In this document: one piece after another, positions 14,781 through 47,610 of the stretch | Numbering within the stretch: the first letter of the stretch is position 1 | Layout: the number at the start of each line of letters is the position of its first letter | NCBI GenBank assembly: GCA_964414985.1 | Contig: CAYPXA010000003.1 | Coordinates: 5,055-69,054, forward strand | DNA from: an uncultured Methanosarcinales archaeon | Lineage (GTDB): Archaea > Nanobdellota > Nanobdellia > Woesearchaeales > JAGWAF01 | Direction of reading: 5' to 3' | DNA: 64,000 nt | Translations under genes and position numbers: made by a program | The notes under the pieces: model-generated | Seen by the model: the letters and a program-made list of their open reading frames with translations, nothing else | Databases searched by the model: none | Told to the model about the DNA's origin: nothing

Positions 14781-14811
14781 TGTTAATGCTTAATCTGATT
14801 ATGCTGGCAAA

Positions 14812-17272: not shown

Positions 17273-19096
17273 CTAATTTTTTCTCTTGCTTTTTGCCTTA
17301 TTCCTTTTTCCAGGCTTAGCTTTTGCAGCAGGATTGCGCTTATTTCCTGCTGATGCAAGCCTTCCAAGAACAAATCCTATGCCCAGGCCTATGAGGAGCA
17401 TTCCTATAATCTGCCTGTCAATTCTTCCAATGCTAATCAGCTTCTGAATGCTGAACCCCTCTGTTTTTTCAAAGTAAAATTCAAAGCTGCTTAACTCCAT
17501 TGCATATTCAGAATAGATTATTGCAGCTGACTCATCTTCTCCTGCGAGAGCCTTTGCATATTCAAGGTATGAATACCCCATTATAGGAAAAATTCCCTCG
17601 TTCTGCTGCTCGATAACTACCTTTTCTGCAGCTCTGATTTTCTGGCTTAAAATAAGGCTTAGCGCGTCTTTTTCAACACCAATAAGCCCGAGAATTGCAT
17701 TGGCTTCTGCCTTTGCCTTGCTTGCCTTGTATGTGCACATCTCAAAATTTCCATTCCGCTGGTCCTTCTTTGCGCTCTCAATGCCCTTCCTTGTGTCTGA
17801 AAGTGTGCCGTCAAAATAGAAGTTGACATAATTGAAGCGCTCTTCAGCCTCTGAAATCTTTATGCTGCACGCCTCTGCAAGAGTCTCATTGTTTATCTCA
17901 AAATCCTGGCCTTCAAGCCCAAAAAAATAGCTCCAGGTGTATGCTGAAAAAAGCCTTTCTTCGCCGTAAGCAAGCCAGTATGCAGATTTTTTCCTGTCTC
18001 CAATGTCCTTTTCAACATTAGACCTTGTTTCTGCAGCCTCATCAACCCTCTCCTTTGAAATCATGTAAGCCTGGATGTCTGTTATTGTCTTAATTTCCTT
18101 TGAGCTTAAGCCTTCATCTACCTTTGCTATCTCTCTTTCAAGCTTCTCAACCAATTCCATTGTCCTGTTTTCTGAAAAGTTTTTCAGGAAGTAAATCATT
18201 GACCTGTACTCAAGGTTTGCCCTGAAGCAGTAGGATGCAGCAGTGTAATAATCATGGTTTTCAAAAGACTTCATTGCTTTTGCAGTGCTGTTCACAGCTT
18301 CTTTTTCAGAATCTGCCATGAACTCCTCGTATTGTCCTGGTGGAATTGAAGGCGATTCAAGATACTCCTTCTGGAGGGATTCGCTTCTGCTGCAAAGCAT
18401 TTCTGCAAGCTCCTTCATTATGCTTTCATACTCGCTGCTTGCCTTAAGCTCGCCTTTATCCTCCGCTGGCTTAATTCCTGTGAACTCAAAAAGTGCATCA
18501 TCAAGGCTTGCAACACCTATAAGCTCAATGCCCATTTCTTCTGCAATTATGCTGGCATTTGAAGTGTTTGATACAATCTCCCATTCAGGCACAAGGACCT
18601 TTGAAATTCCCGCTTTTGCAGCAGCATCAATCTTTTCATTCACACCGCCGACAGGCCCGATAAGCCCTCCTGAATTTATTGTGCCTGTAATCGCAATTCC
18701 GTCCTTAAGCTTCAGGTCTTCAAGCATTGCAGAGGTAAGGACTGCAGCTGCAGCCCCTGCGCTCGGCCCGCCTACAAGAGAGCTTTCAGCCTTTATTGTG
18801 TAAATAAAGTCATACGCCCCGCATTCAGTTTTTGAGTGCTTGCATGCAAGCTGCTTTGCAAACCTCATTGACATCTGGGTGTCAAGCTTTGACATTGGGT
18901 ATGTGTTTACAAAAACCCTTCCAGACCCTTTGATTATCTCGAGGCTAAGGTCTGCAACGCTTCCTGAAAGGCTGCCGTCCTCCAGCTCTGAAACTGCAAG
19001 GAGCTTTATCCTTCCTTCTGTTGTGATTGCTGCAGCGCACTGGGCAGTCAAAACTGCCAGAACAAACATTGCTGCAAAAAAAACGCCCTTATTCAT
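17273..19096 (-). CDS. Secreted/membrane-anchored Lon-like S16 serine protease domain protein
   Basis: Signal peptide MNKGVFFAAMFVLAVLTAQCAAA. Lon proteolytic-domain motifs GGPSAGAAAAV (catalytic Ser) and KAGISKVLVP (catalytic Lys). A roughly 380-aa helical C-terminal region. Terminal TM helix plus basic tail AKAKPGKRNKAKSKRKN. Confidence 0.7.
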   Translation of the reverse strand: MNKGVFFAAMFVLAVLTAQCAAAITTEGRIKLLAVSELEDGSLSGSVADLSLEIIKGSGRVFVNTYPMSKLDTQMSMRFAKQLACKHSKTECGAYDFIYTIKAESSLVGGPSAGAAAAVLTSAMLEDLKLKDGIAITGTINSGGLIGPVGGVNEKIDAAAKAGISKVLVPEWEIVSNTSNASIIAEEMGIELIGVASLDDALFEFTGIKPAEDKGELKASSEYESIMKELAEMLCSRSESLQKEYLESPSIPPGQYEEFMADSEKEAVNSTAKAMKSFENHDYYTAASYCFRANLEYRSMIYFLKNFSENRTMELVEKLEREIAKVDEGLSSKEIKTITDIQAYMISKERVDEAAETRSNVEKDIGDRKKSAYWLAYGEERLFSAYTWSYFFGLEGQDFEINNETLAEACSIKISEAEERFNYVNFYFDGTLSDTRKGIESAKKDQRNGNFEMCTYKASKAKAEANAILGLIGVEKDALSLILSQKIRAAEKVVIEQQNEGIFPIMGYSYLEYAKALAGEDESAAIIYSEYAMELSSFEFYFEKTEGFSIQKLISIGRIDRQIIGMLLIGLGIGFVLGRLASAGNKRNPAAKAKPGKRNKAKSKRKN

Positions 19097-19206
19097 AGGG
19101 TTATGCTTCCAGCCGAGTTATTTAAGCTTTTTGATTGGCCTGGCTGTGAACAAAATAAGGGCCAGCTGCGTTTGATGCAGTCTAATTCACTGTGCTCTTT
19201 TATTTT

Positions 19207-19226
19207 TTAGCCATAATTATGGCTAA
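19207..19226 (+). promoter_or_regulatory. Perfect 20-bp palindrome TTAGCCATAATTATGGCTAA immediately upstream of TATA box of RHH gene (putative operator)
   Basis: Exact reverse-complement symmetry. It is followed by AAATATTTATATATTA (TATA-like, about 19233-19248) 22 nt before the ATG at 19270. Confidence 0.5.
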
Positions 19227-19269
19227 ATTTAGAAATATTTATATATTAGGCATTACAAAATTATGAACT

Positions 19270-19434
19270 ATGGTCCAGAATGAGGTAAGGGTAACGCTTT
19301 CAGCAGAGATGAAGGAAAGGCTTTTTGCAAGAGCCAAATCGCTCGGCATTAAGCCTACTGAGTACATAAGAAGCCTTATCATCGAGGATTTCAAGCCTGA
19401 TGCTGCAAGGCTTGAGCTTAGGAAAATCAGGTAA
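19270..19434 (+). CDS. Ribbon-helix-helix (CopG/Arc/MetJ-like) DNA-binding protein, 54 aa (not in ORF track)
   Basis: Translation MVQNEVRVTLSAEMKERLFARAKSLGIKPTEYIRSLIIEDFKPDAARLELRKIR. A beta-strand RVTLSAEM is followed by two helices, which is the typical RHH pattern. Confidence 0.55.
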   Translation: MVQNEVRVTLSAEMKERLFARAKSLGIKPTEYIRSLIIEDFKPDAARLELRKIR

Positions 19435-19513
19435 ATAATCAGCTAGGCAAACAATCAGTCGGGTAAATAATCATTCAAAAAGTCTGGCAAAAAATCAGCC
19501 AGAAAAAAATCAG
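19425..19513 (+). promoter_or_regulatory. Array of six (A)AATCAG(C/T) direct repeats spaced 12-25 nt between RHH gene and first pilin gene
   Basis: AATCAG at 19425, 19437, 19453, 19493 and 19508. Variant AATCAT at 19468. Shine-Dalgarno-like AAGAGGTG at 19521 precedes the TTG start at 19534. Confidence 0.45.
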
Positions 19514-19533
19514 TCAAAAAAAGAGGTGCTGTC

Positions 19534-19959
19534 TTGAAAAGATTAATTTGCGCTTCTGCAAAAGCGCAGGTGGCAATGGAATACCTAATCATTATAGGCT
19601 TTGTTGCCATAGTCACAATCCCACTCATTATCATTTTTGAGACAAACTCAAAGGACACTACAGACGAAATATCTTCTGCCCAGGTATACCAGATATCAAA
19701 GAGGATTGCAGACGGAGCAGAGACAGTATACTATCTGGGAGAGCCTTCAAGGCTTACAATAAAAGCATACCTGCCCGACAAAATAAGCCAAATCTCAATA
19801 GGCAGCCACGAAATCTCATTCAAAATGAGGAGAGGCAGCATTGAGGATGACATTGTGGTATACACTCCCATCAATATTTCAGGAAACCTCTCCAAAACCC
19901 AGGGCGTCCATTACATAAGCATTGAGAGCAGGGGGGGATATGTTTGGGTTTCAGGATAA
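19534..19959 (+). CDS. Class-III signal peptide (type IV pilin-like) protein 1
   Basis: N-terminus MKRLICASAKA|QVAMEYLIIIGFVAIVTIPLIIIF. Charged n-region, Q at +1, E at +5, then a roughly 20-aa hydrophobic stretch. Confidence 0.65.
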   Translation: MKRLICASAKAQVAMEYLIIIGFVAIVTIPLIIIFETNSKDTTDEISSAQVYQISKRIADGAETVYYLGEPSRLTIKAYLPDKISQISIGSHEISFKMRRGSIEDDIVVYTPINISGNLSKTQGVHYISIESRGGYVWVSG

Positions 19960-20354
19960 GCAAAACTTTTTTTGGAAAGTCGCAGGTTGCGATGGAATTT
20001 GTAATGCTTGTCATGCTGGCATTCATGATAATGGCTGTTTTTTCAGTCATTGCAAGGGACAGGATGATGGACCTAAGGCAGGAAGAAGAGTATGCATATC
20101 TTCAGGATGTTGTTTCATACGTCAATTCTGAAATACTGATTGCATCAAATGTTGAAGACGGCTATTCAAGGCAGTTTTCAATACCTTCAACACTCAACGG
20201 AGTAATCTACAACATCTCATTTTCGCAGGGATACATAACTGCAGAGTCAGTTCACCATGAGTATGCTGCAAGGACTGCGGAAGTTGAGGGAAGCATTGCA
20301 AAAGGCCAAAACACAATATCAAAGAAAAATGGGACTGTCTATATCAATAGCTGA
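19944..20354 (+). CDS. Class-III signal peptide pilin-like protein 2
   Basis: N-terminus ...TFFGKS|QVAMEFVMLVMLAFMIMAVFSVIA. Overlaps the previous gene by 16 nt. Confidence 0.6.
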   Translation: MGFRISKTFFGKSQVAMEFVMLVMLAFMIMAVFSVIARDRMMDLRQEEEYAYLQDVVSYVNSEILIASNVEDGYSRQFSIPSTLNGVIYNISFSQGYITAESVHHEYAARTAEVEGSIAKGQNTISKKNGTVYINS

Positions 20355-20826
20355 TTCATCAGGCAGAAAGGCTCAGGTGTGGTACATCGACTTTATGGTA
20401 GGCCTGCTTATAATGATAACAGCAGCAGTCATCTACTTTAATTTCTACGGCAATCTTTCAGATGATTCTGAATCAGACTGGCAGGAGCTTATTATAGACT
20501 CAAAATCAATAAGCTCTGCGCTTATGTCATCAGGAAGCCCGCCTGGCTGGAATGCATCAAATGCAAGCTCAATAGGAATTACAGACGGAAACTACAGGAT
20601 AAACACAACCAAGTTTGAATACCTCAAATCAATGGAATATGCAGATGCAAAGGCTGCATTCAAGACCCGGTTTGATTTTCACATTTTCATAAAAGGCGCT
20701 GACAACAGCATAACTGATGAATACGGGATAAACTCAACAAGCCCTAAGCTTCTTGTCCAGACTGCAAGGTTTGCAATCTACAATTCAACAATCCAGAGGG
20801 TGGTGCTGCACTTATGGAAAAATTAG
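20329..20826 (+). CDS. Pilin-like protein 3 (start revised to internal ATG)
   Basis: MGLSISIADSSGRKA|QVWYIDFMVGLLIMITAAVIYF. The track ORF 20257-20826 overlaps the upstream gene by about 100 nt, so the ATG at 20329 is the likelier start. Confidence 0.5.
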   Translation: MGLSISIADSSGRKAQVWYIDFMVGLLIMITAAVIYFNFYGNLSDDSESDWQELIIDSKSISSALMSSGSPPGWNASNASSIGITDGNYRINTTKFEYLKSMEYADAKAAFKTRFDFHIFIKGADNSITDEYGINSTSPKLLVQTARFAIYNSTIQRVVLHLWKN

Positions 20827-23800
20827 GCAGATTTTGCAGCAGGCTTTGCGCTAGGCATGGCAGGAAGGCAATATTCTTCACTCTCGACGCGCTTATAGCC
20901 TCAGGCATACTTCTCATAGGCCTTGTTCTTATTTCCTCAACCCATATAAACAGGCAGCCTACAGTGCACTTAAGCTATCTGTCATCAGACCTGATAGGAA
21001 CGCTTTCGGAGCTGAAGGTTGGCGAGATTGAGAATGATTATGTTGAGCAGCTGATTGCATCAGGCAGCATTGCAAGGCTGAACAACACAATTGCAGAGCA
21101 GATAGGCGAATTCTGGGCTGAAGACAGCATAGGCCTTGCTGAAAACCTTACAATGGAAATAATAGGAGATTCAATCCCCCAGAACTACGGCTATGCTGTC
21201 CTTGTAAACGGCGAATCAATACACTCAAGAAGCACAGGGCTCAACAACTCCCTGATAAGCAGCAGGAAAATAATTTCAGGATATGCAAAGCTTAGGCCTG
21301 TTTTCGGATTCACCTCAAAAGCATTCCTTACAGGAATAAAGAGCAGGAAATCATCATCAATAGCTTATTTTGGGGGATTTGTAGGCGAGGGAAACATAAC
21401 TGCAAAAATTGAGCTTCCCCAGAACATCACCAACATAACAGGAGTAATGCTTGAAGCATTGACAGGAACAGACGCAAAGTTTTACATCAACGGCCAGTAC
21501 TCCGGCTCTTTCCCAAAAGGCTCAGGCAACGGCTCATACATAAAGCCGAGCACCTGGAACATTGAAGAGCAGTACTGGAGCAGCCTCCACGGAGGGATGA
21601 ATAACTTTTCTGTAAGGTTTGAGCAGATAAACGAAAACTTCACTGCAAGCGGCCCAAAATACATTGGCGGAGGATATTTCAAGGTTTCATACATCACTCC
21701 TGACAACAAAGAGCTCGGAGTATCATATGCCGGAGGCACTGCTTCATCAAAATCCTGGCTTCCTGGAATAGACGGGCTTGTAAACCTTTACACCTCAATT
21801 TATGTGCCTGGCAACTTGAGCTCAATGAGTGTTTACCTTGACTTTGAAAGCAACTACACAACATACCTGACTATAGGCGGGACAACAGTGTATGAGGCAA
21901 AGGCAAACGGCTCTACAATTGTCAACATTTCAAATTCGCAGCTTGCCTCAATTTTCTCGAGTGATGGGGTGAGCTACAGCAGCATGAGCATGGAAACAAT
22001 TCCTGTAAGGCTTGGCCTGAAAAACATAACAAAAACAGGAGCTATGCTTGATTCAGTGCTTGTAACAGATGTAAGCGGAAGCATGGACTGGAGAATGGAC
22101 CAGGACAATGTTGACGGCACTGTAAGGCAGTGCAGCAGCAGCGACCTTAATCTAAATAGCACTCAACGGCTTAGCGTTGCAAAATGCGCTGGAAAAGATT
22201 TTGTTGACACAATACTTGGAACAGAAGGACCTCTTGTAGGCCTTGCAAGCTACCAAAGCTCAACATCCAGCACACTCTGGCTGACAAACAGCTCTGAAGA
22301 CCTTTATGATGAGATTGACAGCTATAATGCAGAAGGAGGAACATGCATATGCTGCGGAGTAAACAGCGCAGTCGAGATGCTGAAAAATGACTCCCAGGTA
22401 ATGATTGTTCCAAGAAGGGCATCTTCCTGGAGATATGATGACAATGACTTAAGTTCAGACCCTTCAGGCTGGACAAGCTTAGGGTTTTCAGATTCCTCTT
22501 GGAGTCAGGGAAGGGCTGCGCTCGGCAACGGCTACAGCGGGCTTAATACTGTGATAAGCAAGTATGAAGGATATTATTATTTCAGGAAAAAATTCAATCT
22601 CACAAATGCTTCAGACATCTCTTTTGCAAGGCTTTATGTTTATTCTGACGACGGCGCAAGCATCTACATAAACGGCAACCTTGTTGACAATGATATTCTC
22701 AACACTCACACAGCATCCTACTGGAACAGGCAGGTCAACATAAACACATCAATCCTGAATGACGGAGAAAACATAATTGCAGCCAAAGTCAGGAACAGGA
22801 GAAGCTGCTTTTTCACATGGTGCTGGGATACAAATGTTGCGTTTGACCTTGAGCTTGCAGGAAGCAGCACACAGCTTGCAGAGTCTGCGAAGAAAAAAGC
22901 GATGATAGTAATGACTGACGGAGAGGCAAACCAGGAGTGCGCTTTGCAGGGAACTACTGGAGACCTTAACAATGACGGGTATTCAGACACTGCAAAGGAT
23001 GATGCAATAAAAGCTGCATGCGATGCCTATAATGAATATGGGATTACAGTCTACACTGTTGGATTTGGGATAGGCGCAGATGATGACACTTTGGAATATA
23101 TGGCAAACTGCACTGACGGAGCGTACTTCAGCTCTTCAAATTATGAGGAGCTTAAAGAAACATACTTGATTATAGCAAATGAGCTGATTACATATTCTGA
23201 AACCCAGCGGTTCAACCAGACAATAACAGCAGAAACATCATTAAGCCCTGAATCATTCATAGAATTCAGCTACACTCCTGAAATTCCTCAGATGTCATAC
23301 GGAGAAGTTACTGTGACTGCATCAGGCGAGATTTTTGGAAACACAATCAGCAAAGGCTCAATATTCATTCCTGAAGGCGCAGTGCTTTCAGAGCTTTCTG
23401 CAACATCATATTCTGCAGACAAGTGGACAGACACAGTATTTGTCGAGAACAGCGCAGGAAAATCTGGAGTTTTCAACCTTAGCGATTTCGGAAGCTTTTA
23501 CCGGGACCTTGGCGATGCCTTCAAAGTAAGCATTCCAACATCAATTATAATTCCTGAAGAGCAGAACAACATAACTGTGCGCACAGGAATAAGCCCTGCA
23601 AACACAACAGGAGGCTCTGAATACAACAGGCTCATCTACACCTTAAGGATAGGCGGACTGCTTGATTACGGCGGAGTTTTTTCATATTCAGAAGGATGCA
23701 CATGGAGCCTTGAATTCGAGGACGGAACTTCAGGAGAGGTTAATGTGCCTTTAGATTATTCAGGAAACCAGACATGCTATTACTCAAATGCAACCTACGG

Positions 23801-23975
23801 AGAAGATGATGCTCTTGACGATGCAGCCTACAGGCTTTACAGCAGGCTTGACCTTGACTCAAACGGAAAGCTGGACATAAAGCTTGATGAAAACAACCTT
23901 GAGGCAGACACAATCTCAATTTCAGACGTCCCTTCGCTTTGGGGGCCTGCAGTTGTAGAGGTGAGAATATGGTGA
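20814..23975 (+). CDS. Large (1053 aa) putative pilus-tip adhesin: pilin-like N-terminal TM segment plus vWA domain and PA14-like lectin domain
   Basis: N-terminus GRKAIFFTLDALIASGILLIGLVLI. vWA MIDAS VLVTDVSGSMDW...MTDGEANQ...YTVGFG. PA14-like YYYFRKKFNLTNASDISFARLYVYSDDGASIYINGNLVDNDI. Confidence 0.6.
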   Translation: MEKLGRFCSRLCARHGRKAIFFTLDALIASGILLIGLVLISSTHINRQPTVHLSYLSSDLIGTLSELKVGEIENDYVEQLIASGSIARLNNTIAEQIGEFWAEDSIGLAENLTMEIIGDSIPQNYGYAVLVNGESIHSRSTGLNNSLISSRKIISGYAKLRPVFGFTSKAFLTGIKSRKSSSIAYFGGFVGEGNITAKIELPQNITNITGVMLEALTGTDAKFYINGQYSGSFPKGSGNGSYIKPSTWNIEEQYWSSLHGGMNNFSVRFEQINENFTASGPKYIGGGYFKVSYITPDNKELGVSYAGGTASSKSWLPGIDGLVNLYTSIYVPGNLSSMSVYLDFESNYTTYLTIGGTTVYEAKANGSTIVNISNSQLASIFSSDGVSYSSMSMETIPVRLGLKNITKTGAMLDSVLVTDVSGSMDWRMDQDNVDGTVRQCSSSDLNLNSTQRLSVAKCAGKDFVDTILGTEGPLVGLASYQSSTSSTLWLTNSSEDLYDEIDSYNAEGGTCICCGVNSAVEMLKNDSQVMIVPRRASSWRYDDNDLSSDPSGWTSLGFSDSSWSQGRAALGNGYSGLNTVISKYEGYYYFRKKFNLTNASDISFARLYVYSDDGASIYINGNLVDNDILNTHTASYWNRQVNINTSILNDGENIIAAKVRNRRSCFFTWCWDTNVAFDLELAGSSTQLAESAKKKAMIVMTDGEANQECALQGTTGDLNNDGYSDTAKDDAIKAACDAYNEYGITVYTVGFGIGADDDTLEYMANCTDGAYFSSSNYEELKETYLIIANELITYSETQRFNQTITAETSLSPESFIEFSYTPEIPQMSYGEVTVTASGEIFGNTISKGSIFIPEGAVLSELSATSYSADKWTDTVFVENSAGKSGVFNLSDFGSFYRDLGDAFKVSIPTSIIIPEEQNNITVRTGISPANTTGGSEYNRLIYTLRIGGLLDYGGVFSYSEGCTWSLEFEDGTSGEVNVPLDYSGNQTCYYSNATYGEDDALDDAAYRLYSRLDLDSNGKLDIKLDENNLEADTISISDVPSLWGPAVVEVRIW

Positions 23976-24940
23976 TTTCCAGGATGAGGTCAAGCAAAAA
24001 GGCGATATTCTTTACATTCATTGCAATAATGCTGATTGCAACAGCGCTTTTCTCATTTACAGTCCATTCAAGGTACAGCTTGAAGTCCAAGGCGCTTGTC
24101 ATAGAAACAAGGGTAAGCACAATGAACAGCTTCATGGCAGACATAGACAAGGACATAGAAAGAGGGCTTTTCATCTCATCGCACAGGTCTGTTTTATCTC
24201 TAATTGACTGGGTTTCGTCAGAAGGAAAATTCCTGAATGACACAGAATCCGGATTTGCAGAGCTGCTTCTGAACGGAACTCTTTACGGAGAGCAGCAGTC
24301 TTTGATGGAATCAACCACATTTCCAGACTGGGCTTCAAAGATGCAGCAGCAGGGAAGCAGGATAAACCTTCAGATAAGCATGGCTGTCCAAAATGTGTCT
24401 ATTGCACATTCAGATCCCTGGACTTTGAATGTACTCCTTGAAACTTTGGTTTATGTGAAAGATTCAACAGGCCTTGCAGAATGGAACACAACAAAATCAA
24501 TTTCTGCATTAGTCTCAATACTGGGCATGGAAGACCCGATTTATGCGCTTAAGACAGGCGGAAAAGCTGCAAACAAATTCAATATTACCCCATTTGAGCA
24601 TTTTGTTGAAGGAAATGACACTTCAAACCTTCAGAGCCATGCAGAGCACTCTTATTACATCAGCTGGAGCATGGCTCCCAGCTTCCTTATGAGGCTTGAA
24701 GGCAATTTCAGCACTTCAGAATATGGAATAGAAAGCCTTGTCAACCTGCAGGAGCTGATTGACCAGGGAATCCAGGTGCAGCAGCGCAGCATTGTTGACC
24801 ACATATACTGGTCAAACAGGACAATTTCATCATCTTTGATTTCAGGAATGCCTTCCTGGTTCAGGCTTGACAATGAGAACAATCCGGAAGAAGGCATGAC
24901 CAGGCTTGAGCGCTATGAAGCAGAGGACCTTGCATCATGA
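23969..24940 (+). CDS. Pilin-like / pseudopilin protein sharing KKAIFFT N-terminal motif with the adhesin
   Basis: ATG overlaps the adhesin stop (ATGGTGA). N-terminus MVISRMRSSKKAIFFTFIAIMLIATALFSF. Confidence 0.5.
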   Translation: MVISRMRSSKKAIFFTFIAIMLIATALFSFTVHSRYSLKSKALVIETRVSTMNSFMADIDKDIERGLFISSHRSVLSLIDWVSSEGKFLNDTESGFAELLLNGTLYGEQQSLMESTTFPDWASKMQQQGSRINLQISMAVQNVSIAHSDPWTLNVLLETLVYVKDSTGLAEWNTTKSISALVSILGMEDPIYALKTGGKAANKFNITPFEHFVEGNDTSNLQSHAEHSYYISWSMAPSFLMRLEGNFSTSEYGIESLVNLQELIDQGIQVQQRSIVDHIYWSNRTISSSLISGMPSWFRLDNENNPEEGMTRLERYEAEDLAS

Positions 24941-25009
24941 GCAGCATGCCAACGCAAAGATTTTTAAAGTATTGGGAGAATATAAATGCAAAAGAGGTGA
25001 ATGGCATAG

Positions 25010-26164
25010 ATGGGAGATTGCTCGCTGATTGAGACAGGAGTAGACAAGCTTGTAACCCTTATTAGGAAGAACAAAAAGCTTTCTGTTGCAGAGGCTGCTA
25101 AGCAGCTTGGAGTTTCAACAGTTGTTGTTGAAGAGTGGGCTGACTTTCTTGAGGAAGAGGGGATAATAAGCATAGAATACAAGTTTACAACCCCCTATCT
25201 TGTTGAACGGCTTCTTACAAAGGATGAGCTTGTTAAAAAGGAGAAGGAATTCGGCGGCAAGAAGGAGGCTTTTGTAAGAAAGGCAGAGGTTGCGCTTGCG
25301 CTTCTTGACAGGGAAAGCGAGACATTCCAGAAAATACGCGAGCAGTTTGACGGGCTTAAGAAAGACTTAGGCACTGAAATCAAGAAGGTAAAGGGAGACT
25401 TAAAAGACCTTGAGAAATATGAGGAGCTGAAGAACAGGCTTGACCAGCAGATTCAGAGCCAGCAGAAGGAGTTCAAGGAAAGCATATCACAGGTTGAATC
25501 TCAGATTTCAAGGGAGCAGAAAAAGTATTCTGAAATACTCAAGGATATTGACCTTGAGGAAAAGCAGCTTGACAAGGAGAAGCTTGAGGCGCTTTCAATA
25601 AGGGAGCGCGAAAACCTCCTTATGCAGAAGCTTGCAGAATTCAGGAAAGGAATCGAGAAAATTGAGAAGAGCATAGAGTCTGAAGACAAGGTTGTATCCA
25701 GCTCTGAAGAGCACATCTCAAGGCTTAAGGAGCTTGCAGATTCTGTCAAGCAGAGCGTAGAGGAAAGAAGAAGCGAGCTTGAAAAGCTGTTTGAGCAGAA
25801 GAAAGAGCAGGAGAAGAACATTGCAAGGATGCAGGAAGAGATACTTGCAAAGGCAAAGGAGAAGAAGAGCGAGATAGATGCAAGAGTCCAGGATGGCCAG
25901 GGAGCATCTCACCAGTTTTCAGTATTCTTTGACAAAAAGGCAAGGGTCGAGGCAATGCTCAAAAAGCTTAACGACGAAAGGAACGACCTTGAGAAGGAGC
26001 TTATTCACCTTATACAGAAGGCAAAGGCGTTCAGCATAGCATCAAAGTCAGCTGCAGTTGGAAAGCACATGTCAGAGCTGAAGAAGACATTTGATTCAAT
26101 AGACAAGAAAAAAGGCCTGTTTGAGACAGAGCTGAAAAAGCTTGCAAGCTTCCTGAAAAGCTGA
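25010..26164 (+). CDS. Winged-helix (N-terminal) plus long coiled-coil protein embedded in pilus locus
   Basis: N-terminus LSVAEAAKQLGVSTVVVEEWADFLEEEGIISIE is HTH-like. The remaining roughly 300 aa show heptad-rich K/E/L coiled coil. Confidence 0.5.
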   Translation: MGDCSLIETGVDKLVTLIRKNKKLSVAEAAKQLGVSTVVVEEWADFLEEEGIISIEYKFTTPYLVERLLTKDELVKKEKEFGGKKEAFVRKAEVALALLDRESETFQKIREQFDGLKKDLGTEIKKVKGDLKDLEKYEELKNRLDQQIQSQQKEFKESISQVESQISREQKKYSEILKDIDLEEKQLDKEKLEALSIRERENLLMQKLAEFRKGIEKIEKSIESEDKVVSSSEEHISRLKELADSVKQSVEERRSELEKLFEQKKEQEKNIARMQEEILAKAKEKKSEIDARVQDGQGASHQFSVFFDKKARVEAMLKKLNDERNDLEKELIHLIQKAKAFSIASKSAAVGKHMSELKKTFDSIDKKKGLFETELKKLASFLKS

Positions 26165-26196
26165 TGCTTGATTAATATCTAAACTAATATTCCAAA

Positions 26197-27810
26197 ATGG
26201 CAAAAAAAAGAGGCGTTAAAAAGGTGCATGGCAGAGCCAGGCATCACCTGCAAAAGCGCAGCAGGCCCAAGGCTTCAAGGCATCCTGCGCGAAAGAGTGC
26301 AGCTGCAGGAAAGCAGTCTGAACACCAGCACTTTGGCAACGCAAAAGTCATAGACTCATACAAATTTACATCCCTAAACATGCCTATTTCTGTAAGGATT
26401 TTTATGGAGCAGGATGACTTTGTCCCAAGATACGAGCTCTCAATCAGCACAATAAGCAGAAACACTGAAATAATTCTTGAAAGGATAAGAAAGGAGCTTG
26501 TCCACAAAGTCAGCCTTGGAATGGTAGACATAACGCAGGCAAAGCGTTCAGGAATAATAGAAGACAAGTTCAGCGAGACAATAAAGGACCTTGTCCAGAA
26601 ATACTTTCCAGACATAGACGAGCAGACTTCAAACTTTCTTTCATCATACCTTATCCAGAAGTCATTAGGACTAGGCCAGATTGAAATACTTATGGACGAT
26701 GAGGCTCTTGAGGAGATTGCAGTAAACTCTGCAGAGGAGCCTGTATGGGTCTACCACAGAAAGCACGGCTGGCTCAAGACAAATATCAGAGTTGAAAGCG
26801 AGGAAAAGATAAGGCACTATGCATCAATGATAGGCAGGAAAGTCGGAAGGCAGATTACAATACTTAATCCTCTTATGGACGCAAACCTTGACACAGGCGA
26901 CAGGGTAAACGCCACTCTTATGCCAATTTCAAATGTCGGAAACACAATAACACTTCGAAAGTTTGCGACAAAGCCATGGACAATAACTTCATTCATAAAA
27001 GCAGGAGCGATATCAGCTGCTGCTGCAGCGCTCATATGGCAGGCAGTGCATTACGAGATGTCTGCGCTGATTGCAGGAGGAACTGCTTCAGGAAAGACAT
27101 CCATGCTCAACGTTGTTGCGAACTTCTTTCCCCCAAACCAGAGGATAATCTCAATTGAAGACACAAGGGAAATAAAGCTTCCTGCGTTTCTGCACTGGCT
27201 TCCGATGGTCACAAGGCTTGCAAATCCTGAAGGAAAGGGAGAGATAAGCATGCTTGACCTGCTTGTAAACTCCTTGAGGCAGAGGCCTGACAGGATTATA
27301 GTCGGAGAAATAAGGAAGAAAAGGGAAGCTGAAGTCCTTTTTGAGGCAATCCACACAGGCCATTCAGTCTATGCAACAGTCCACGCAAACGATGTCAAGG
27401 AGACAATAACAAGGCTTACAAACCCTCCAATTGAAATTCCAAAGTCAATGCTTCCTGCAGTATCGCTTATAATTGTGCAGTACAGGAACAGGAGGACAGG
27501 CAACAGGAGGACATTCCAGATTGCTGAAATACTGCCTGACTCATCTGCAAACATACTTATGCAGCACAACACAAAGACTGACAAACTCGAAACAGTAAGC
27601 AAGAGCAAGGTGCTTACAAAAGAGCTTGAGCTTTACACAGGCACATCAGCAGCTGCATTTGCAAAGGAAGTTGCTGAAAAAGAGGCAGTCCTGAAATGGC
27701 TTGTGAAGCAGGACATAGACGGAGTTGACAATGTAGGCAGGGTAATTGCAGAGTACTACACAAACAAGGAGAACCTAATGAAGTATGTGCGCCACAACAG
27801 AAAAATGTAG
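26197..27810 (+). CDS. Type II/IV secretion-system ATPase (VirB11/FlaI/TadA-like) with basic N-terminal extension
   Basis: Walker A GGTASGKTS. Walker B and Asp-box RIIVGEIR. His-box AIHTGHSVYATVHAN. The first roughly 60 aa are K/R/H-rich (MAKKRGVKKVHGRARHHLQKRSRPKASRHP). Confidence 0.8.
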   Translation: MAKKRGVKKVHGRARHHLQKRSRPKASRHPARKSAAAGKQSEHQHFGNAKVIDSYKFTSLNMPISVRIFMEQDDFVPRYELSISTISRNTEIILERIRKELVHKVSLGMVDITQAKRSGIIEDKFSETIKDLVQKYFPDIDEQTSNFLSSYLIQKSLGLGQIEILMDDEALEEIAVNSAEEPVWVYHRKHGWLKTNIRVESEEKIRHYASMIGRKVGRQITILNPLMDANLDTGDRVNATLMPISNVGNTITLRKFATKPWTITSFIKAGAISAAAAALIWQAVHYEMSALIAGGTASGKTSMLNVVANFFPPNQRIISIEDTREIKLPAFLHWLPMVTRLANPEGKGEISMLDLLVNSLRQRPDRIIVGEIRKKREAEVLFEAIHTGHSVYATVHANDVKETITRLTNPPIEIPKSMLPAVSLIIVQYRNRRTGNRRTFQIAEILPDSSANILMQHNTKTDKLETVSKSKVLTKELELYTGTSAAAFAKEVAEKEAVLKWLVKQDIDGVDNVGRVIAEYYTNKENLMKYVRHNRKM

Positions 27811-27930
27811 CGCATTCCTTAATTTATAATAATTAATAATCAGGAAAGGGTGGTTTGAATCAGGTCAAATATATTTGAGAGGATTGCAAAGTCATTCCCA
27901 GCCCTCGGGCTGAAGCTAAGGCAGTCTGGA

Positions 27931-28674
27931 ATGAAATACACGCCTGTTGAATTTGTAAGGCGCGCAGCATTCACCTCATTCTACATGACCACAATGATAA
28001 TCTTCCTTCTTGGAGCGCTTTTCATGAAGCTTGATATACTTTTGAGGGTGCTCTATTTTGTATTCCCCCTGCTTTTTGTAGGGATGTTTTTTTACTTTAT
28101 GAAGCTGCCAGAGGCAAAGATTATCAGGCGCGAAAAGGACATTGACAAGGAGATAGTGTTTGCAGGAAGGTTCCTTGTTGTCGAGCTTGAAAGCGGAGTG
28201 CCATTGTACAACGCGCTTGTCAATGTCTCTAAAAGCTACCCTACAATAGGAAAGGCAATAAACGAGATAATTGAGGATGTAGACCTTGGAGCAACAATCG
28301 AAGAGGCGATTGAGGAGGCAATTGAGCTCACGCCCTCGCAGGATTTCAGGAAGCTGCTCTGGCAGATAATGAATTCACTCAAGACAGGCGCAGATGTTTC
28401 ATCATCCCTCGGAGCAGTTGTTGACCAGATTACAAGGGAGCAGATAATTGCTGTAAAGGAATACGGCAGGAAGCTAAACCCCCTTGCAATGTTCTACATG
28501 ATGATTGCAGTAATAGTGCCATCATTGGGAGTTACAATGCTGATAGTGCTTTCAAGCTTTCTTTCATTTGAGATGGGGCTTTCATCACTTATGGTGCTTG
28601 TGCTTGCCATAGCCTTAATCCAGTTCATGTTCATAGCAATAATCCGGTCGTCAAGGCCTTCAGTTGAAATCTAA
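27931..28674 (+). CDS. TadB/FlaJ-like membrane protein (single T2SSF domain)
   Basis: N-terminal TM helices, a cytoplasmic T2SSF-like domain (LYNALVNVSKSYPTIGKAINEII...) and C-terminal TM helices. Confidence 0.65.
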   Translation: MKYTPVEFVRRAAFTSFYMTTMIIFLLGALFMKLDILLRVLYFVFPLLFVGMFFYFMKLPEAKIIRREKDIDKEIVFAGRFLVVELESGVPLYNALVNVSKSYPTIGKAINEIIEDVDLGATIEEAIEEAIELTPSQDFRKLLWQIMNSLKTGADVSSSLGAVVDQITREQIIAVKEYGRKLNPLAMFYMMIAVIVPSLGVTMLIVLSSFLSFEMGLSSLMVLVLAIALIQFMFIAIIRSSRPSVEI

Positions 28675-28675
28675 A

Positions 28676-29812
28676 ATGGAAAATCAGGCAAAAAATCCAG
28701 GAGAGAAGAAAAAGACAGGCTGGATAAGGCAGGAGGCTGAAAAGCTGACCCATTTTAAAGAGCATTACGAGCGCGCCAAGAAGAAAGAGAAGGAGATTAA
28801 GGAGAAGCGCAAGGATAAGATAAGGCAGCAGCGCAAGTACATGCTTAGGAACTACATTGAAAAGGCAGGATTAAGCATAAAGGAGGAAAGGGTTACAAAG
28901 ACTCTTTTCAATTTCTGCATTATAATCAACCTTATTATTTCCGCATACCTGATTTACTTTTTTTCATTTGAGTCTGATTCAAACCTTGTTTTTGTAGTCA
29001 TAGTCATGGCAATAGTATGGGCGCTGATTTTTTTTGGAGTGCTTTTCCTTGTCTGGCTGCTGTTTTACCTGATGCTTGACTTTAGGATATTCCAGAGAAA
29101 GACAAGCATAGAGGATGTCCTTGCAGACTTCCTCCAATTGACATCTGCAAACATCAGGGCTGGAATGCCTATTGACAGGGCGCTGTGGTTTTCAGTCAGG
29201 CCTAGGTTCGGGGTTCTTGCAAACGAGATTGAGATTGTTGCAAAGGAGACAATGAGCGGAAAGGACCTTGAGACTGCGCTTACAGACTTCACAAAAAAGT
29301 ACGACTCGCCTCTTCTTAAAAGGTCGATGAGCCTGCTTATTGAAGGCCTTAGGGCTGGCGGAGAAGTTGGGGAGCTCCTCAACAAGATTTCAACAAACAT
29401 ATCAGAATCAAGGATAATGAAGAAGGAGATGTCAGCAAACGTAACAACTTATGTAATCTTCATAACCTTTGCGACAGTTGCTGCAGCGCCTGTGCTTTTT
29501 GCGCTCTCAAACCAGCTCCTGCACATAATACATTCAATAGTCTCAACAATATCGCTTCCTTCCGGAGGTGTTGCAGGCTTTGGCGCTTCTTTCACAACTC
29601 TTGCAATAAAGCCTTCAGACTTCAGGCTTTTTTCAGTCATAATGCTTACAGTAACCTCATTTTTTTCAGCTGCAATAGTTGCAATCATAAGAAGGGGCAG
29701 CGTAAAGGCAGGCCTGAAGTACATTCCGTCATTCATAATCACTGCAGTAATCCTGTTTTACATTTCAGACTTCTTTTTGGGAAAAGTGCTGGGGTCTATG
29801 CTTTTGTCGTAG
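28676..29812 (+). CDS. TadC/FlaJ-like membrane protein (second T2SSF domain), K/E-rich N-terminus
   Basis: ATG 1 nt after the upstream stop (the track start at 28664 is TTG). T2SSF-like segment ANIRAGMPIDRALWFSV...GELLNKIS. Multiple TM helices. Confidence 0.65.
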   Translation: MENQAKNPGEKKKTGWIRQEAEKLTHFKEHYERAKKKEKEIKEKRKDKIRQQRKYMLRNYIEKAGLSIKEERVTKTLFNFCIIINLIISAYLIYFFSFESDSNLVFVVIVMAIVWALIFFGVLFLVWLLFYLMLDFRIFQRKTSIEDVLADFLQLTSANIRAGMPIDRALWFSVRPRFGVLANEIEIVAKETMSGKDLETALTDFTKKYDSPLLKRSMSLLIEGLRAGGEVGELLNKISTNISESRIMKKEMSANVTTYVIFITFATVAAAPVLFALSNQLLHIIHSIVSTISLPSGGVAGFGASFTTLAIKPSDFRLFSVIMLTVTSFFSAAIVAIIRRGSVKAGLKYIPSFIITAVILFYISDFFLGKVLGSMLLS

Positions 29813-29817
29813 CGCTT

Positions 29818-29832
29818 CAAAACATTTATATA
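29818..29832 (+). promoter_or_regulatory. BRE/TATA promoter AAAACATTTATATAT upstream of pilin gene 29854
   Basis: An identical 15-mer recurs upstream of the next pilin gene (30295-30309). Confidence 0.5.
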
Positions 29833-29853
29833 TTTGAATTTTAATTTTAGGGT

Positions 29854-30282
29854 ATGGCCAAAAAAGGACAGGCAGCAATGGAGTTTTTGATGACCTATGG
29901 CTGGGCTATACTTGCAATTCTTGCAGCAATAGGCGCGCTTGCTTATTTCGGTGTTTTGACTCCAACAAAGTTCCTGCCTGAAAAGTGCGTTTTTCCGCAG
30001 GGAATGGCGTGCCTTGACTTTCAGGTTGAGGCTTCAGATGCAAAGTTCGTGATACAGCCTGCTTTTGGCGCAGACGCATTCATTTACAATGCAACAATCG
30101 CAGAGTGCGATGCAGTCTTTATTGACAGGATTGTGGACAGCCAGCTTATGCTCAACTTTACGAACTGCGACAACGGAATTGAGGGAGACCAGTTCAGGGA
30201 AAAGCTTGTTGTGACATATTCTTTAAGGGGAAGCCCGATTGTCAAGCAGATGGATGCAGACGTAACCACGAATGTAAGATAA
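29854..30282 (+). CDS. Epd-like type IV pilin (class-III signal peptide, KGQ motif)
   Basis: MAKKG|QAAMEFLMTYGWAILAILAAIGALAYFGVL. Q+1/E+5. Resembles methanogen Epd pilin signal peptides. Confidence 0.75.
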   Translation: MAKKGQAAMEFLMTYGWAILAILAAIGALAYFGVLTPTKFLPEKCVFPQGMACLDFQVEASDAKFVIQPAFGADAFIYNATIAECDAVFIDRIVDSQLMLNFTNCDNGIEGDQFREKLVVTYSLRGSPIVKQMDADVTTNVR

Positions 30283-30294
30283 ATCTTTTCTGTC

Positions 30295-30309
30295 AAAACA
30301 TTTATATAT
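30295..30309 (+). promoter_or_regulatory. BRE/TATA promoter AAAACATTTATATAT upstream of pilin gene 30370
   Basis: Same motif as 29818. Downstream SD-like AAAAGAGGTG at about 30351. Confidence 0.5.
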
Positions 30310-30369
30310 CAGTATATTAATTTGTATATCAGAACAATCAATCTATACATAAAAGAGGTGAATAGCAAA

Positions 30370-30810
30370 ATGTTCAAAAAAGGACAGGCAGCAATGGAGT
30401 TCTTGATGACCTACGGCTGGGCAATCCTTGTTGTGCTTGCAGCAATCGGCGCTCTTGCATATTTCGGAGTATTGAGCCCTGACAGGTTTCTGCCAGAGAA
30501 GTGCACACTGCCATCAGGCATGGCGTGCTTAGACTTTACAGCAAGCTCAAGCCAGATTCAGTTGGTTATCCAGAACAGCGGCGGATTTGACATGAATAAT
30601 GTAAACGTGTCACTTGACGTTGAAGGCGGAAGTGTTGTTTCATGCTCACCAGCAGACGACTCAACATTGACTGATTCAGAGCAGGACACATTTACCTGCA
30701 CAGGCACATTTGCATCCGGAAAGCTTAAGGCTGACTTGAATGTTGCATATGTCAATGCACAGACACAATTGAGCCATACCAAAGCCGGCGAGCTTATTGC
30801 AAAGATATAA
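30370..30810 (+). CDS. Epd-like type IV pilin paralog (class-III signal peptide, KGQ motif)
   Basis: MFKKG|QAAMEFLMTYGWAILVVLAAIGALAYFGVL. N-terminal 35 aa nearly identical to the preceding pilin. Confidence 0.75.
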   Translation: MFKKGQAAMEFLMTYGWAILVVLAAIGALAYFGVLSPDRFLPEKCTLPSGMACLDFTASSSQIQLVIQNSGGFDMNNVNVSLDVEGGSVVSCSPADDSTLTDSEQDTFTCTGTFASGKLKADLNVAYVNAQTQLSHTKAGELIAKI

Positions 30811-30870
30811 AGCAATAACCAATCTGTTTTTTTATTTTTTTATTTAATATTTTTTTCTAAGAATTTTAGG
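30811..30870 (+). terminator. Long T-rich terminator region after pilin genes
   Basis: ctgtttttttatttttttatttaatatttttttc. Confidence 0.45.
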
Positions 30871-47608: not shown

Positions 47609-47610
47609 CT

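What the first reader, a model, noticed from the sequence alone, without database searches (positions are those of the whole stretch)
19207..30810. Compact archaeal type-IV-pilus-like locus with Epd-type pilins, giant vWA/PA14 adhesin, RHH regulator and split TadB/TadC
Within 11.6 kb on one strand lie the following genes. There is an RHH gene with a palindromic operator. There are three pilin-like genes with Q+1/E+5 class-III signal peptides. There is a 1053-aa protein with a pilin-like N-terminus plus vWA (MIDAS DVSGSMD) and PA14-like lectin domains. There is a further KKAIFFT-type pilin-like gene, a wHTH coiled-coil protein, a VirB11/FlaI-type ATPase, and TadB-like and TadC-like membrane proteins encoded separately (archaeal FlaJ/TadC is usually one two-domain protein). 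Finally there are two nearly identical KGQAAMEF pilins with identical promoters. No prepilin peptidase, FlaH/FlaG/FlaF or KaiC-like gene is present, so this is not an archaellum. The combination of an adhesin tip with a lectin fold suggests a host- or surface-attachment pilus, which is of particular interest if the organism is an episymbiont. As an assembled system with these accessory components it appears uncharacterised.
Basis: partly seen in the sequence, partly recalled or inferred. Interest (0 to 1): 0.75.

Follow-up and report, generated by a model that had tools for sequence, protein, structure and literature searches.

The report
DPANN archaeal adhesion pilus gene cluster
This is a real, widely conserved type IV pilus gene cluster of a tiny Woesearchaeota (DPANN) archaeon; its large pilin-anchored adhesin carries a swappable sugar-binding-like module, which makes it a good candidate for host or surface attachment but a variant of a known kind of machine, not a new one.

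Summary
All twelve genes are at the stated coordinates on the + strand. The organism is a Woesearchaeota/Nanoarchaeota (DPANN) archaeon. The locus is a type IV filament system and not an archaellum. It has a VirB11/PilB-family ATPase, two single-domain platform proteins, and seven proteins with class III-type signal peptides. Across 80 related loci the cleavage motifs are conserved in 86-100% of orthologues with a recognisable site.

Three modules recur: (A) three small pilins, a vWA giant and a 333-aa protein; (B) a wHTH/coiled-coil protein, the ATPase and two platform proteins; (C) two major pilins.

The split platform is not unusual: published surveys describe it for Epd-like "System 1" loci, including DPANN ones. 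No prepilin peptidase lies in the window or near related loci.

Best reading: an adhesive pilus primed by a minor-pilin tip complex that displays a modular adhesin. It is a new variant of a known kind, of moderate interest.

The parts
19206..19227 (.). Perfect 22-bp palindrome TTTAGCCATAA|TTATGGCTAAA, the putative RHH operator
   Evidence: The orthologous locus L011 has its own palindrome, TATCCATAATAATGGATA, at the same place upstream of its RHH gene.
19232..19246 (+). BRE/TATA-like promoter element GAAATATTTATATAT for the RHH gene and probably for the operon
   Evidence: 5 matches in the window against 0.17 expected, all on the + strand just upstream of called ORFs.
19270..19434 (+). 54-aa ribbon-helix-helix protein, a lineage-specific regulator at the head of the operon
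   Evidence: Sub-threshold NikA-like (4.6e-4) and RelB-like RHH hits. Found in only 1 of 80 related loci (L011, 72% identity).
19425..19518 (.). Six AATCA(G/T) repeats (five AATCAG, one AATCAT) in the RHH-to-pilin spacer; role unknown
   Evidence: Not conserved in L011.
19534..19959 (+). Minor pilin 1 (141 aa), signal KA|QVAMEY
   Evidence: Pfam Class_IIIsignal is sub-threshold (16.2 bits). Across orthologues Q+1 is 90% and E+5 is 90%.
19944..20354 (+). Minor pilin 2 (136 aa), signal KS|QVAMEF
   Evidence: Weak DUF7266 hit. Across orthologues Q+1 is 90% and E+5 is 86%.
20257..20826 (+). Minor pilin 3 (189-aa ORF; the likely start is ATG 20329), signal KA|QVWYID
   Evidence: Across orthologues Q+1 is 86% and D+6 is 88%.
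20814..23975 (+). 1053-aa modular pilin-adhesin: class III-like N-terminus (KA|IFFTLD), conserved N domain (aa 1-412), split vWA, conserved C domain (aa 801-1053)
22050..23213 (+). vWA domain (aa 413-800) with MIDAS residues D419-x-S421-x-S423, T510 and D702
   Evidence: Pfam VWA and VWA_2. The MIDAS residues are invariant or at least 90% conserved.
22398..22886 (+). 163-aa beta-sandwich inserted in the vWA domain (aa 529-691); galactose-binding/rhamnosidase-N-like, putative carbohydrate-binding module at a hypervariable insertion site
23939..24940 (+). 333-aa pilin-like protein (the likely start is 23969, giving 322 aa), signal KKA|IFFTF with no acidic residue; a new family without a Pfam model
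25010..26164 (+). 384-aa cytoplasmic protein with an N-terminal wHTH-like domain and a long coiled coil; always found next to the ATPase gene
   Evidence: sub-threshold HTH hits and SMC-like hits. It has no transmembrane segment. The N-terminal 100 aa are the most conserved part. Synteny is shown.
26197..27810 (+). Secretion/assembly ATPase of the VirB11/PilB/GspE family (537 aa)
   Evidence: T2SSE 2.4e-36 with a weak PilB3_C hit. The FlaI model scores 258 bits against a cut-off of 550. The best PDB relative is afGspE 2OAP (259 bits), ahead of FlaI (190) and CpaF (149). It is about 70% identical to many Woesearchaeota proteins.
27931..28674 (+). Platform protein, N-terminal-half equivalent (247 aa, one T2SSF domain)
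   Evidence: T2SSF 1.8e-17. Aligns to UpsF profile positions 29-254 of 484.
28664..29812 (+). Platform protein, C-terminal-half equivalent (the likely start is ATG 28676, giving 378 aa; one T2SSF domain)
   Evidence: T2SSF 6.9e-14. Aligns to ArlJ/FlaJ profile positions 215-464 of 465. Only 19% identical to the first platform protein.
29819..29833 (+). BRE/TATA AAAACATTTATATAT of pilA1
29854..30282 (+). Putative major pilin PilA1 (142 aa), signal KG|QAAMEF
   Evidence: Q+1 and E+5 are 98-100% conserved across orthologues.
30295..30309 (+). BRE/TATA AAAACATTTATATAT of pilA2
30370..30810 (+). Putative major pilin PilA2 (146 aa), signal KG|QAAMEF
30827..30857 (+). T-rich tract after pilA2, a probable archaeal terminator
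   Evidence: Read directly from the sequence; inference only.

Best explanation
The locus encodes a complete type IV filament (adhesion pilus) machine of a Woesearchaeota (DPANN) archaeon, apart from the prepilin peptidase.

Shown here:
- The assembly core is a PilB/GspE-type ATPase plus a platform protein split into two single-T2SSF-domain proteins.
- Seven substrates carry conserved class III-type signal peptides.
- The three-module gene order is conserved across DPANN lineages.

Inferred:
- An unlinked class III signal peptidase cleaves the prepilins after [KR][GAS].
- The three small pilins, the 333-aa acidic-residue-less pilin and the 1053-aa vWA pilin form an initiation/tip complex through their N-terminal helices.
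- The ATPase and platform then polymerise PilA1/PilA2 underneath this complex.
- The filament tip therefore displays a MIDAS-containing vWA domain with a sugar-binding-type beta-sandwich beside the metal site. This gives metal- and glycan-dependent attachment to a host cell or a surface.
- The module at the vWA insertion site is exchanged between lineages and sets ligand specificity.
- The wHTH/coiled-coil protein is a cytoplasmic partner or regulator of the ATPase.
- The RHH protein represses the operon from the palindrome that overlaps its own promoter.
For: - Core machine: T2SSE and two T2SSF proteins. The two platform proteins align to the N-terminal and C-terminal halves of two-domain platform models.
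- Not an archaellum: the FlaI model scores 258 bits against a cut-off of 550. afGspE is a better relative than FlaI. No fla accessory genes occur in 64 kb.
- Signal peptides: motifs. Conservation across 80 loci is Q+1 86-100%, E+5 86-100% in three families, and D+6 88-98% in two families.
- Synteny: modules A, B and C recur in loci labelled Woesearchaeota, Aenigmatarchaeota, Micrarchaeota, Altiarchaeota and Nanohalarchaeota. 361 species genomes carry the adhesin.
- Insert: related to rhamnosidase and GH2 sugar-binding domains and to lectins.
- Insertion site: it holds 0, about 165, about 240, about 390, about 610 or 845 aa in relatives, including Laminin_G_3/ConA-like, DUF2341 and pentraxin-like modules.
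- Module A includes tandem adhesin copies in L046 and L071.
- The RHH palindrome co-varies in L011.
- Published analogues: TadE/F/G tip complexes and the S. sanguinis PilB (vWA) and PilC (lectin) modular pilins (PMC12075869). Two-platform System 1 loci with adhesin-like pilins are reported in DPANN (10.64898/2026.04.22.720090; PMC4858521).
Against: - No prepilin peptidase is present in the window, and none recurs within 10 kb of related loci. Processing is therefore assumed.
- FlaFind was not run. Pfam Class_IIIsignal is sub-threshold for one pilin (16.2 bits against 23.7) and absent for the others.
- The major-pilin role of PilA1/PilA2 rests only on size, own promoters and conservation. PilA1 has no relative among solved structures by sequence.
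- The 333-aa protein matches no known minor pilin fold.
- Carbohydrate binding by the insert is inferred from distant similarity.
- There is no expression, filament or host data. The tip-complex geometry was not modelled.
Confidence: 0.62

Rival explanations
1. The locus builds a short pseudopilus or surface-display machine, like a type II secretion system or a bindosome. The ATPase and platform would assemble only a short stalk that anchors the vWA adhesin and its partners in the cell envelope or S-layer, without forming long pili.
For: There are five non-major pilin-like proteins against two candidate major pilins. The NCBIfam bindosome ATPase BasE model gives a full-length but far sub-threshold hit (155 bits against 1000). 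The 2026 survey proposes that archaeal TFF machines are 'functionalised' with proteins carrying class III signal peptides (10.64898/2026.04.22.720090).
Against: Two dedicated small pilins with strong promoters of their own and 98-100% conserved N-termini are what a polymerising filament subunit looks like. There are no substrate-binding proteins or ABC transporter genes in the locus.
Confidence: 0.13
2. The locus is a DNA-uptake or otherwise multifunctional pilus. Its main job would be to capture extracellular DNA or nutrients for a metabolically reduced DPANN cell, and the vWA protein would serve only as an assembly or priming factor, as PilY1 does.
For: The organism belongs to the reduced-genome DPANN group. 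From general knowledge, type IV pili serve competence in many bacteria, including ultrasmall episymbionts. vWA proteins such as PilY1 and TadG also act in priming and mechanosensing (PMC9210963, title only; PMC12075869).
Against: I saw no ComEA-, ComEC- or DNA-processing-like genes in the locus or its flanks. The lineage-variable lectin-like modules beside the MIDAS point to ligand recognition and not merely to priming.
Confidence: 0.1
3. The locus is an archaellum or an archaellum-derived motility system, as the automated 'FlaI' names given by some sources suggest.
For: JGI names for close homologues read 'flagellar protein FlaI'. The FlaI model is the top NCBIfam hit.
Against: The FlaI score of 258 bits is far below the 550-bit cut-off. 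afGspE scores higher than FlaI. No archaellin, ArlH/KaiC, ArlF/G, ArlCDE or ArlX gene is found in 64 kb. The platform is split and vWA and minor pilins are present.
Confidence: 0.02

Closest known systems
Archaeal TFF 'System 1' / Clade 1, the Epd pilus of Methanococcus maripaludis (Makarova et al. 2016, PMC4858521; Sivabalasarma & Albers 2026 preprint)
   Same: One ATPase and two separate platform genes. Several minor pilins lie in the locus, together with large adhesin-like pilin proteins. The pilins have Q at +1. The system is reported to occur in DPANN. DUF2341, the adhesin domain noted for Clade 1, occupies the vWA insertion site in a family member (P0186).
   Different: The major pilins here are 142-146 aa with a globular part, not about 70 aa. 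There is no dedicated EppA-type peptidase and no FleN/MinD gene in the locus. The adhesin is a vWA pilin. A conserved wHTH/coiled-coil gene precedes the ATPase. I did not test which ATPase clade this belongs to. Its best solved relative is afGspE, and it has a weak PilB3_C-like tail.
Bacterial Tad pilus with a TadE/TadF/TadG (KilL/M/N) tip complex (PMC12075869)
   Same: Separate TadB-like and TadC-like platform proteins. A set of minor pilins includes one large modular pilin that forms the backbone of a tip complex. TadG-family proteins carry vWA domains (PMC4858521). Some related loci carry two tandem copies of the adhesin gene.
   Different: The ATPase is not a TadA/CpaF equivalog (TIGR03819 scores 189 bits against a cut-off of 373). 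There are no Flp-type short pilins, no secretin, no TadZ and no TadV. The system is archaeal, with class III signals bearing Q+1.
Streptococcus sanguinis T4P modular minor pilins PilB (vWA) and PilC (lectin)
   Different: Here the lectin-like module is inserted inside the vWA domain of the same polypeptide. The protein also has large, conserved extra N- and C-terminal domains. The lineage and the assembly machine are different.
Sortase-pilus and type V pilus tip adhesins with vWA domains (RrgA, GBS104, SpaC, Mfa5)
   Different: The assembly pathways are unrelated (sortase or protease-mediated strand exchange). These proteins have no pilin alpha-1 helix.
Euryarchaeal Clade 2 adhesion pili (Haloferax PilB3/PilC3 with PilA; Archaeoglobus afGspE)
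   Same: afGspE is the closest solved ATPase. There is a weak PilB3_C match. Makarova et al. place a few Nanoarchaea in this clade and note two tadC-like genes in many Clade 2 loci.
   Different: Pilins and adhesin lie in cis here. There is no haloarchaeal-type PilA family hit. Clade membership was not tested.

Membership tests
Type IV filament (TFF) assembly system | Secretion ATPase of the PilB/GspE/VirB11 family | tested here: met
   Pfam T2SSE E = 2.4e-36. PDB relatives are afGspE, FlaI and CpaF.
Type IV filament (TFF) assembly system | Polytopic platform protein with T2SSF domain(s) | tested here: met
   Two adjacent genes, each with one T2SSF domain (1.8e-17 and 6.9e-14) and several predicted transmembrane segments (5 and 6 by a hydropathy window).
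Type IV filament (TFF) assembly system | Filament subunits with a class III signal peptide | tested here: met
   The pattern [KR][GAS]|Q..(E+5) or |IFFT..D, followed by a hydrophobic helix, occurs in 7 proteins and is conserved in 86-100% of orthologues with a recognisable site. FlaFind itself was not run. Pfam PF04021 is only sub-threshold.
Type IV filament (TFF) assembly system | Class III signal (prepilin) peptidase, family A24 | tested here: not met
   Absent from the scanned window ORFs of 120 aa or more. No recurring multi-pass membrane family lies within 10 kb of the 80 related loci. The rest of the genome could not be searched.
Archaellum | ArlI/FlaI equivalog ATPase | tested here: not met
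   NF058587 scores 258 bits against a cut-off of 550.
Archaellum | Archaellins and the ArlH (KaiC-like), ArlF/G, ArlCDE or ArlX genes | tested here: not met
   None was found among the scanned ORFs of the 64-kb window.
Epd pilus / System 1 (Clade 1) | Two platform-protein genes next to the ATPase | tested here: met
   Conserved in related loci.
Epd pilus / System 1 (Clade 1) | ATPase belongs to Clade 1 in a phylogeny with EpdL | not tested
   No reference Epd, Aap, Ups or PilB3 sequences were available to the tools. The best solved relative is afGspE.
Epd pilus / System 1 (Clade 1) | Short (about 70 aa) major pilin without a globular domain (arCOG06620), and a dedicated EppA peptidase in the locus | tested here: not met
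   PilA1 and PilA2 are 142 and 146 aa. There is no peptidase in the locus.
Bacterial Tad pilus | TadA/CpaF equivalog ATPase and Flp-type pilins | tested here: not met
   TIGR03819 scores 188.8 bits against a cut-off of 373. There are no pilins of Flp size.
vWA (von Willebrand factor A) domain with MIDAS | Pfam VWA above threshold, the D-x-S-x-S ... T ... D metal site, and the vWA fold | tested here: met
PA14 domain | Match to Pfam PF07691 | tested here: not met
   No hit in the full protein at E <= 0.1. Only 2 of 16 homologous inserts hit it, at E = 0.017. One PA14-containing glucosidase appears among the Foldseek hits (3AC0).
Galactose-binding-like sugar-binding beta-sandwich (Bac_rhamnosid_N / Glyco_hydro_2_N type) | Profile match and fold match | tested here: met

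The most novel reading that the evidence does not exclude
The single insertion site beside the MIDAS of the vWA pilin would be a host-specificity cassette for DPANN episymbionts. Lineages would swap lectin-like modules (rhamnosidase-N-like, ConA-like, DUF2341 or none) to retarget their pilus tip to different host surface glycans. The 333-aa protein would be a new-fold capping pilin that always pairs with the adhesin. The wHTH/coiled-coil protein would be a new cytoplasmic component of archaeal pilus motors.
Probability: 0.3. Interest if true: 0.7.

Novelty: new variant of a known kind. Interest (0 to 1): 0.45.

Why it matters
How DPANN archaea find and hold on to their hosts is largely unknown, and most of them, Woesearchaeota included, are uncultured. 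This locus is conserved across several DPANN lineages. It provides a concrete candidate for the attachment organelle. It also provides a candidate specificity determinant: the exchangeable module inserted in the vWA domain. That candidate can be tested by binding assays on the recombinant domain and by correlating insert type with co-occurring hosts. The locus also adds an archaeal example of the 'modular pilin' principle known from bacterial Tad and Gram-positive type IV pili, which bears on the proposed archaeal origin of Tad pili. Finally, it defines two sizeable protein families that have no Pfam model: the 333-aa pilin-like protein and the wHTH/coiled-coil protein.

Tried and rejected
- tRNA and Rfam scans of the window found nothing, so no rRNA- or tRNA-based taxonomy was possible.
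- I tried to retrieve the 121-kb parent contig through the ATPase. Only Logan contigs of 8.5 kb or less came back, so the rest of the genome could not be searched for the peptidase.
- I clustered multi-pass membrane ORFs around the 80 related loci to look for a linked prepilin peptidase. Only unrelated families appeared, such as MscS-like, EamA-like and site-2-protease-like proteins.
- PilA1 against the sequences of solved structures gave no meaningful hit.
- The coiled-coil protein against solved structures gave nothing.
- The AFDB Foldseek library was unavailable, so I could not test a fold-level link to Methanococcus Epd proteins.
- The profile search of the 333-aa family lists only close relatives in its top 150, so it says nothing about taxonomic reach beyond DPANN.
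- The AATCAG repeats are not conserved in the one locus that shares the RHH gene.
- I considered whether the adjacent secreted Lon-like protease could stand in for the prepilin peptidase and rejected it. It has an N-terminal signal peptide and a C-terminal anchor, so its catalytic domain faces outward.
- The archaellum reading was rejected.

Full report
**Observation.** Several overlap or are separated by only a few bases, which suggests an operon.
- Pfam and NCBIfam confirm the core. The 537-aa protein is a T2SSE-family ATPase (E = 2.4e-36).
- The next two proteins each carry one T2SSF domain (1.8e-17 and 6.9e-14).
- The 1053-aa protein carries a vWA domain split into two pieces, aa 415-528 and aa 692-783.
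- A perfect 22-bp palindrome (19206-19227) sits just upstream of a BRE/TATA-like element (19232-19246) and the 54-aa RHH gene.
- The two terminal pilin genes share an exact 15-nt BRE/TATA, AAAACATTTATATAT. The motif family occurs five times in the window against 0.17 expected, each time on the + strand just upstream of a called ORF.
- The two pilins are almost identical for about 57 residues and then diverge.

**Organism and conservation.** The ATPase is 62-82% identical (mostly about 65-72%) to the 120 best of several thousand matching metagenomic proteins. Wherever a source gives an organism name, it is Woesearchaeota, Nanoarchaeota or Nanoarchaeia. The window therefore comes from a DPANN archaeon.

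The gene order recurs in long contigs of relatives. A scan of one genome per species found the 1053-aa family in 361 genomes. I searched the 80 loci that were fetched, plus six loci retrieved earlier, with the window proteins. Three modules emerged:
- Module A: pilin141, pilin136, pilin189, the vWA giant, and the 333-aa protein.
- Module B: the wHTH/coiled-coil protein, the ATPase, and platform proteins a and b.
- Module C: usually two PilA genes.

Modules A and B are sometimes inverted or reordered but stay together. Loci labelled Aenigmatarchaeota, Micrarchaeota, Altiarchaeota and Nanohalarchaeota also carry the adhesin, in several cases with the ATPase/platform module beside it. Those labels are the depositors' own.

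The RHH gene is not part of the conserved system. It occurs in only one other locus (L011). There it is preceded by a different palindrome with the same core, TATCCATAATAATGGATA, which supports an operator function.

**Signal peptides.** Seven proteins have a basic residue and a small residue followed by a hydrophobic helix:
- pilin141: KA|QVAMEY
- pilin136: KS|QVAMEF
- pilin189: KA|QVWYID
- the 1053-aa giant: KA|IFFTLD
- the 333-aa protein: KA|IFFTF
- PilA1 and PilA2: KG|QAAMEF

Among orthologues from the related loci in which a site could be located, the key positions are strongly conserved:

| Family | Conserved positions |
|---|---|
| PilA | Q+1 98-100%, E+5 98-100% |
| Two small pilins | Q+1 90%, E+5 86-90% |
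| Third small pilin | Q+1 86%, D+6 88% |
| vWA giant | D+6 98% |
| 333-aa protein | no conserved acidic residue |

This is the pattern expected of processed type IV pilins. FlaFind itself could not be run, and the Pfam class III signal model is only sub-threshold for one protein.

**No peptidase.** No A24 peptidase is encoded among the window ORFs of 120 aa or more that I scanned. No multi-pass membrane family recurs next to the related loci. The peptidase must be encoded elsewhere in the genome, which I could not check.

**Not an archaellum.**
- The FlaI model scores 258 bits against a cut-off of 550.
- The best solved relative is the Archaeoglobus GspE-like ATPase 2OAP (259 bits, full length), ahead of FlaI (190) and CpaF (149).
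- No archaellin, KaiC-like ArlH, ArlF/G or ArlCDE/X gene was found in the 64 kb.

**The platform proteins.** The two platform proteins are distant paralogues, 19% identical. They align to the N-terminal half of UpsF and the C-terminal half of ArlJ respectively, so together they equal one two-domain platform protein. This is not unusual. Makarova et al. describe two TadC-like genes for Clade 1 (Epd) and for many Clade 2 loci (PMC4858521). A 2026 survey states that System 1, which has two platform genes, occurs in methanogens, Thermococcales and DPANN, and that some DPANN 4A loci also have two.

**The 1053-aa protein.** An alignment of 120 homologues shows four conserved parts:
- the KK[GA]|(I/V)FFT(I/L)D N-terminus;
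- an N-terminal region of about 400 aa, which in the model is a helical bundle followed by beta-sandwiches;
- a vWA domain;
- a C-terminal beta-rich domain of about 250 aa.

The MIDAS residues D419, S421, S423, T510 and D702 are invariant or at least 90% conserved. The AlphaFold model is confident (mean pLDDT 85.5).

- SpaC;
- PitA, RrgA and GBS104.

**The insert in the vWA domain.** A 163-aa beta-sandwich is inserted between the Thr-bearing and Asp-bearing MIDAS segments (aa 529-691).
- As an isolated domain it matches Pfam Bac_rhamnosid_N at E = 1.1e-5, with 25.8 bits against a cut-off of 25.
- A profile of 16 such inserts finds the Streptomyces rhamnosidase 3W5M (3.4e-7), lectins (about 1e-3) and GH2 sugar-binding domains.
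- PA14 is hit by only 2 of 16 inserts, at E = 0.017.

The insertion site is hypervariable across the family. It holds 0-6 aa in 39 of 120 members, about 165 aa in 18, about 230-260 aa in 6, about 360-410 aa in 42, and about 450-700 aa and 845 aa in the rest. Close relatives whose ATPases are 72-80% identical to this one differ in having the insert or lacking it. Where Pfam recognises the longer inserts, they are Laminin_G_3/ConA-like, pentraxin-like, DUF2341 and reelin-B modules. DUF2341 is the domain Makarova et al. noted in the putative tip adhesins of Clade 1 loci.

**The 384-aa protein.** It has no transmembrane segment. It gives sub-threshold wHTH hits in its first 56 residues or so and SMC-like coiled-coil hits afterwards. 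Its N-terminal 100 residues are the best conserved part. Its fixed position before the ATPase suggests a cytoplasmic partner or regulator, but its role is unknown.

**Mechanism.**
- Shown: the parts list, the conserved signal motifs, the three-module synteny, the vWA/MIDAS fold, and the variable sugar-binding-type insert.
- Inferred: an unlinked class III peptidase matures the pilins. The five module-A proteins form a priming/tip complex. The ATPase and split platform polymerise PilA1/PilA2 beneath it. The tip adhesin binds a host or surface ligand through the MIDAS and the inserted module. The RHH protein represses the operon at its palindrome.

The closest functional analogues are bacterial Tad tip complexes (TadE/F/G, with TadG a large modular and often vWA-bearing pilin) and the S. 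sanguinis PilB (vWA) and PilC (lectin) modular pilins (PMC12075869).

**Rivals.**
- A short pseudopilus or display machine.
- A DNA-uptake pilus.
- An archaellum, which is effectively excluded.

**Comparison and novelty.** The system belongs to the known kind 'archaeal type IV adhesion pilus with two platform proteins and adhesin-like minor pilins'. Such loci in DPANN are already counted in surveys. Full-text searches found no paper that describes the following features:
- the vWA pilin with its insertion hot spot;
- the conserved five-gene module;
- the 333-aa family;
- the wHTH/coiled-coil partner.

I rate it a new variant of a known kind. It is of moderate interest, mainly as a concrete candidate for the DPANN host-attachment organelle and its specificity determinant.

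Noticed in passing
window 36320-38513: An overlapping gene pair, a MoxR/ChlI-type AAA ATPase (36320-37339) and a vWA protein (37296-38513), lies 5.5 kb downstream of the pilus locus. Makarova et al. link vWA + MoxR/GvpN pairs to some archaeal T4P loci. No link was tested here.
   Followed up: no
window 17273-19096 (- strand): A 607-aa protein has an N-terminal signal peptide, a Lon_C (S16) protease domain, a long helical region and a C-terminal anchor with a basic tail. It lies directly upstream of the locus. A homologue sits next to the pilin module in 8 of the 80 scanned loci (L007, L011, L017, L021, L047, L050, L055, L060), on either strand. This could be a functional association or just lineage synteny.
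   Followed up: partly
window 19425-19518: Six AATCA(G/T) repeats (five AATCAG, one AATCAT; units of about 15-16 nt, spaced 12-24 nt apart) fill the spacer between the RHH stop codon and the first pilin gene. They are absent from L011, the only related locus with the RHH gene.
   Followed up: partly
window 1133-6049: Two large secreted proteins (427 and 1198 aa) carry Ig-like, CARDB-like or cadherin-like domains (NPCBM_assoc, FixG_C, Big_9, Cadherin_5). They are probably S-layer or surface proteins.
   Followed up: no
window 43494-48483: A compact thymidylate/folate cluster: dUTPase, thymidylate kinase, a Mur-ligase/FolC-like protein, SHMT, DHFR and thymidylate synthase. This is notable for a reduced DPANN genome.
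   Followed up: no
window 54813-55541 (- strand): A 242-aa ORF with one transmembrane segment and Sec11/S26-like motifs (GSMEH, GDxxV, GDNN) looks like a type I signal peptidase and not the missing class III peptidase. It has no Pfam hit at E <= 1e-4.
   Followed up: partly
L005 13453-14262 (- strand); L050 upstream of 8667: Related loci carry different add-ons. L005 has a KaiC-like PF06745 ATPase directly after the platform genes. L050 has a small wHTH gene where this window has the RHH gene. Regulators at the operon head seem to be lineage-specific.
   Followed up: no
L046 6862-13000; L071 1867-8007: Some relatives have two tandem copies of the vWA adhesin gene ahead of one 333-aa gene. This may indicate alternative tips.
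   Followed up: partly
window 12386-15828 and L004 1-2948: The neighbourhood upstream of the pilus locus (AdoHcy hydrolase, an Lrp/AsnC regulator and a PfkB kinase) is shared with a distant relative's locus.
   Followed up: no
window 26197-26330 and 28676-28890: The ATPase has an N-terminal tail of about 45 aa rich in Lys, Arg and His, which most homologues do not align to (about 90% query coverage). Platform protein b has an N-terminal region of about 70 aa rich in Lys and Glu. Their function is unknown.
   Followed up: no
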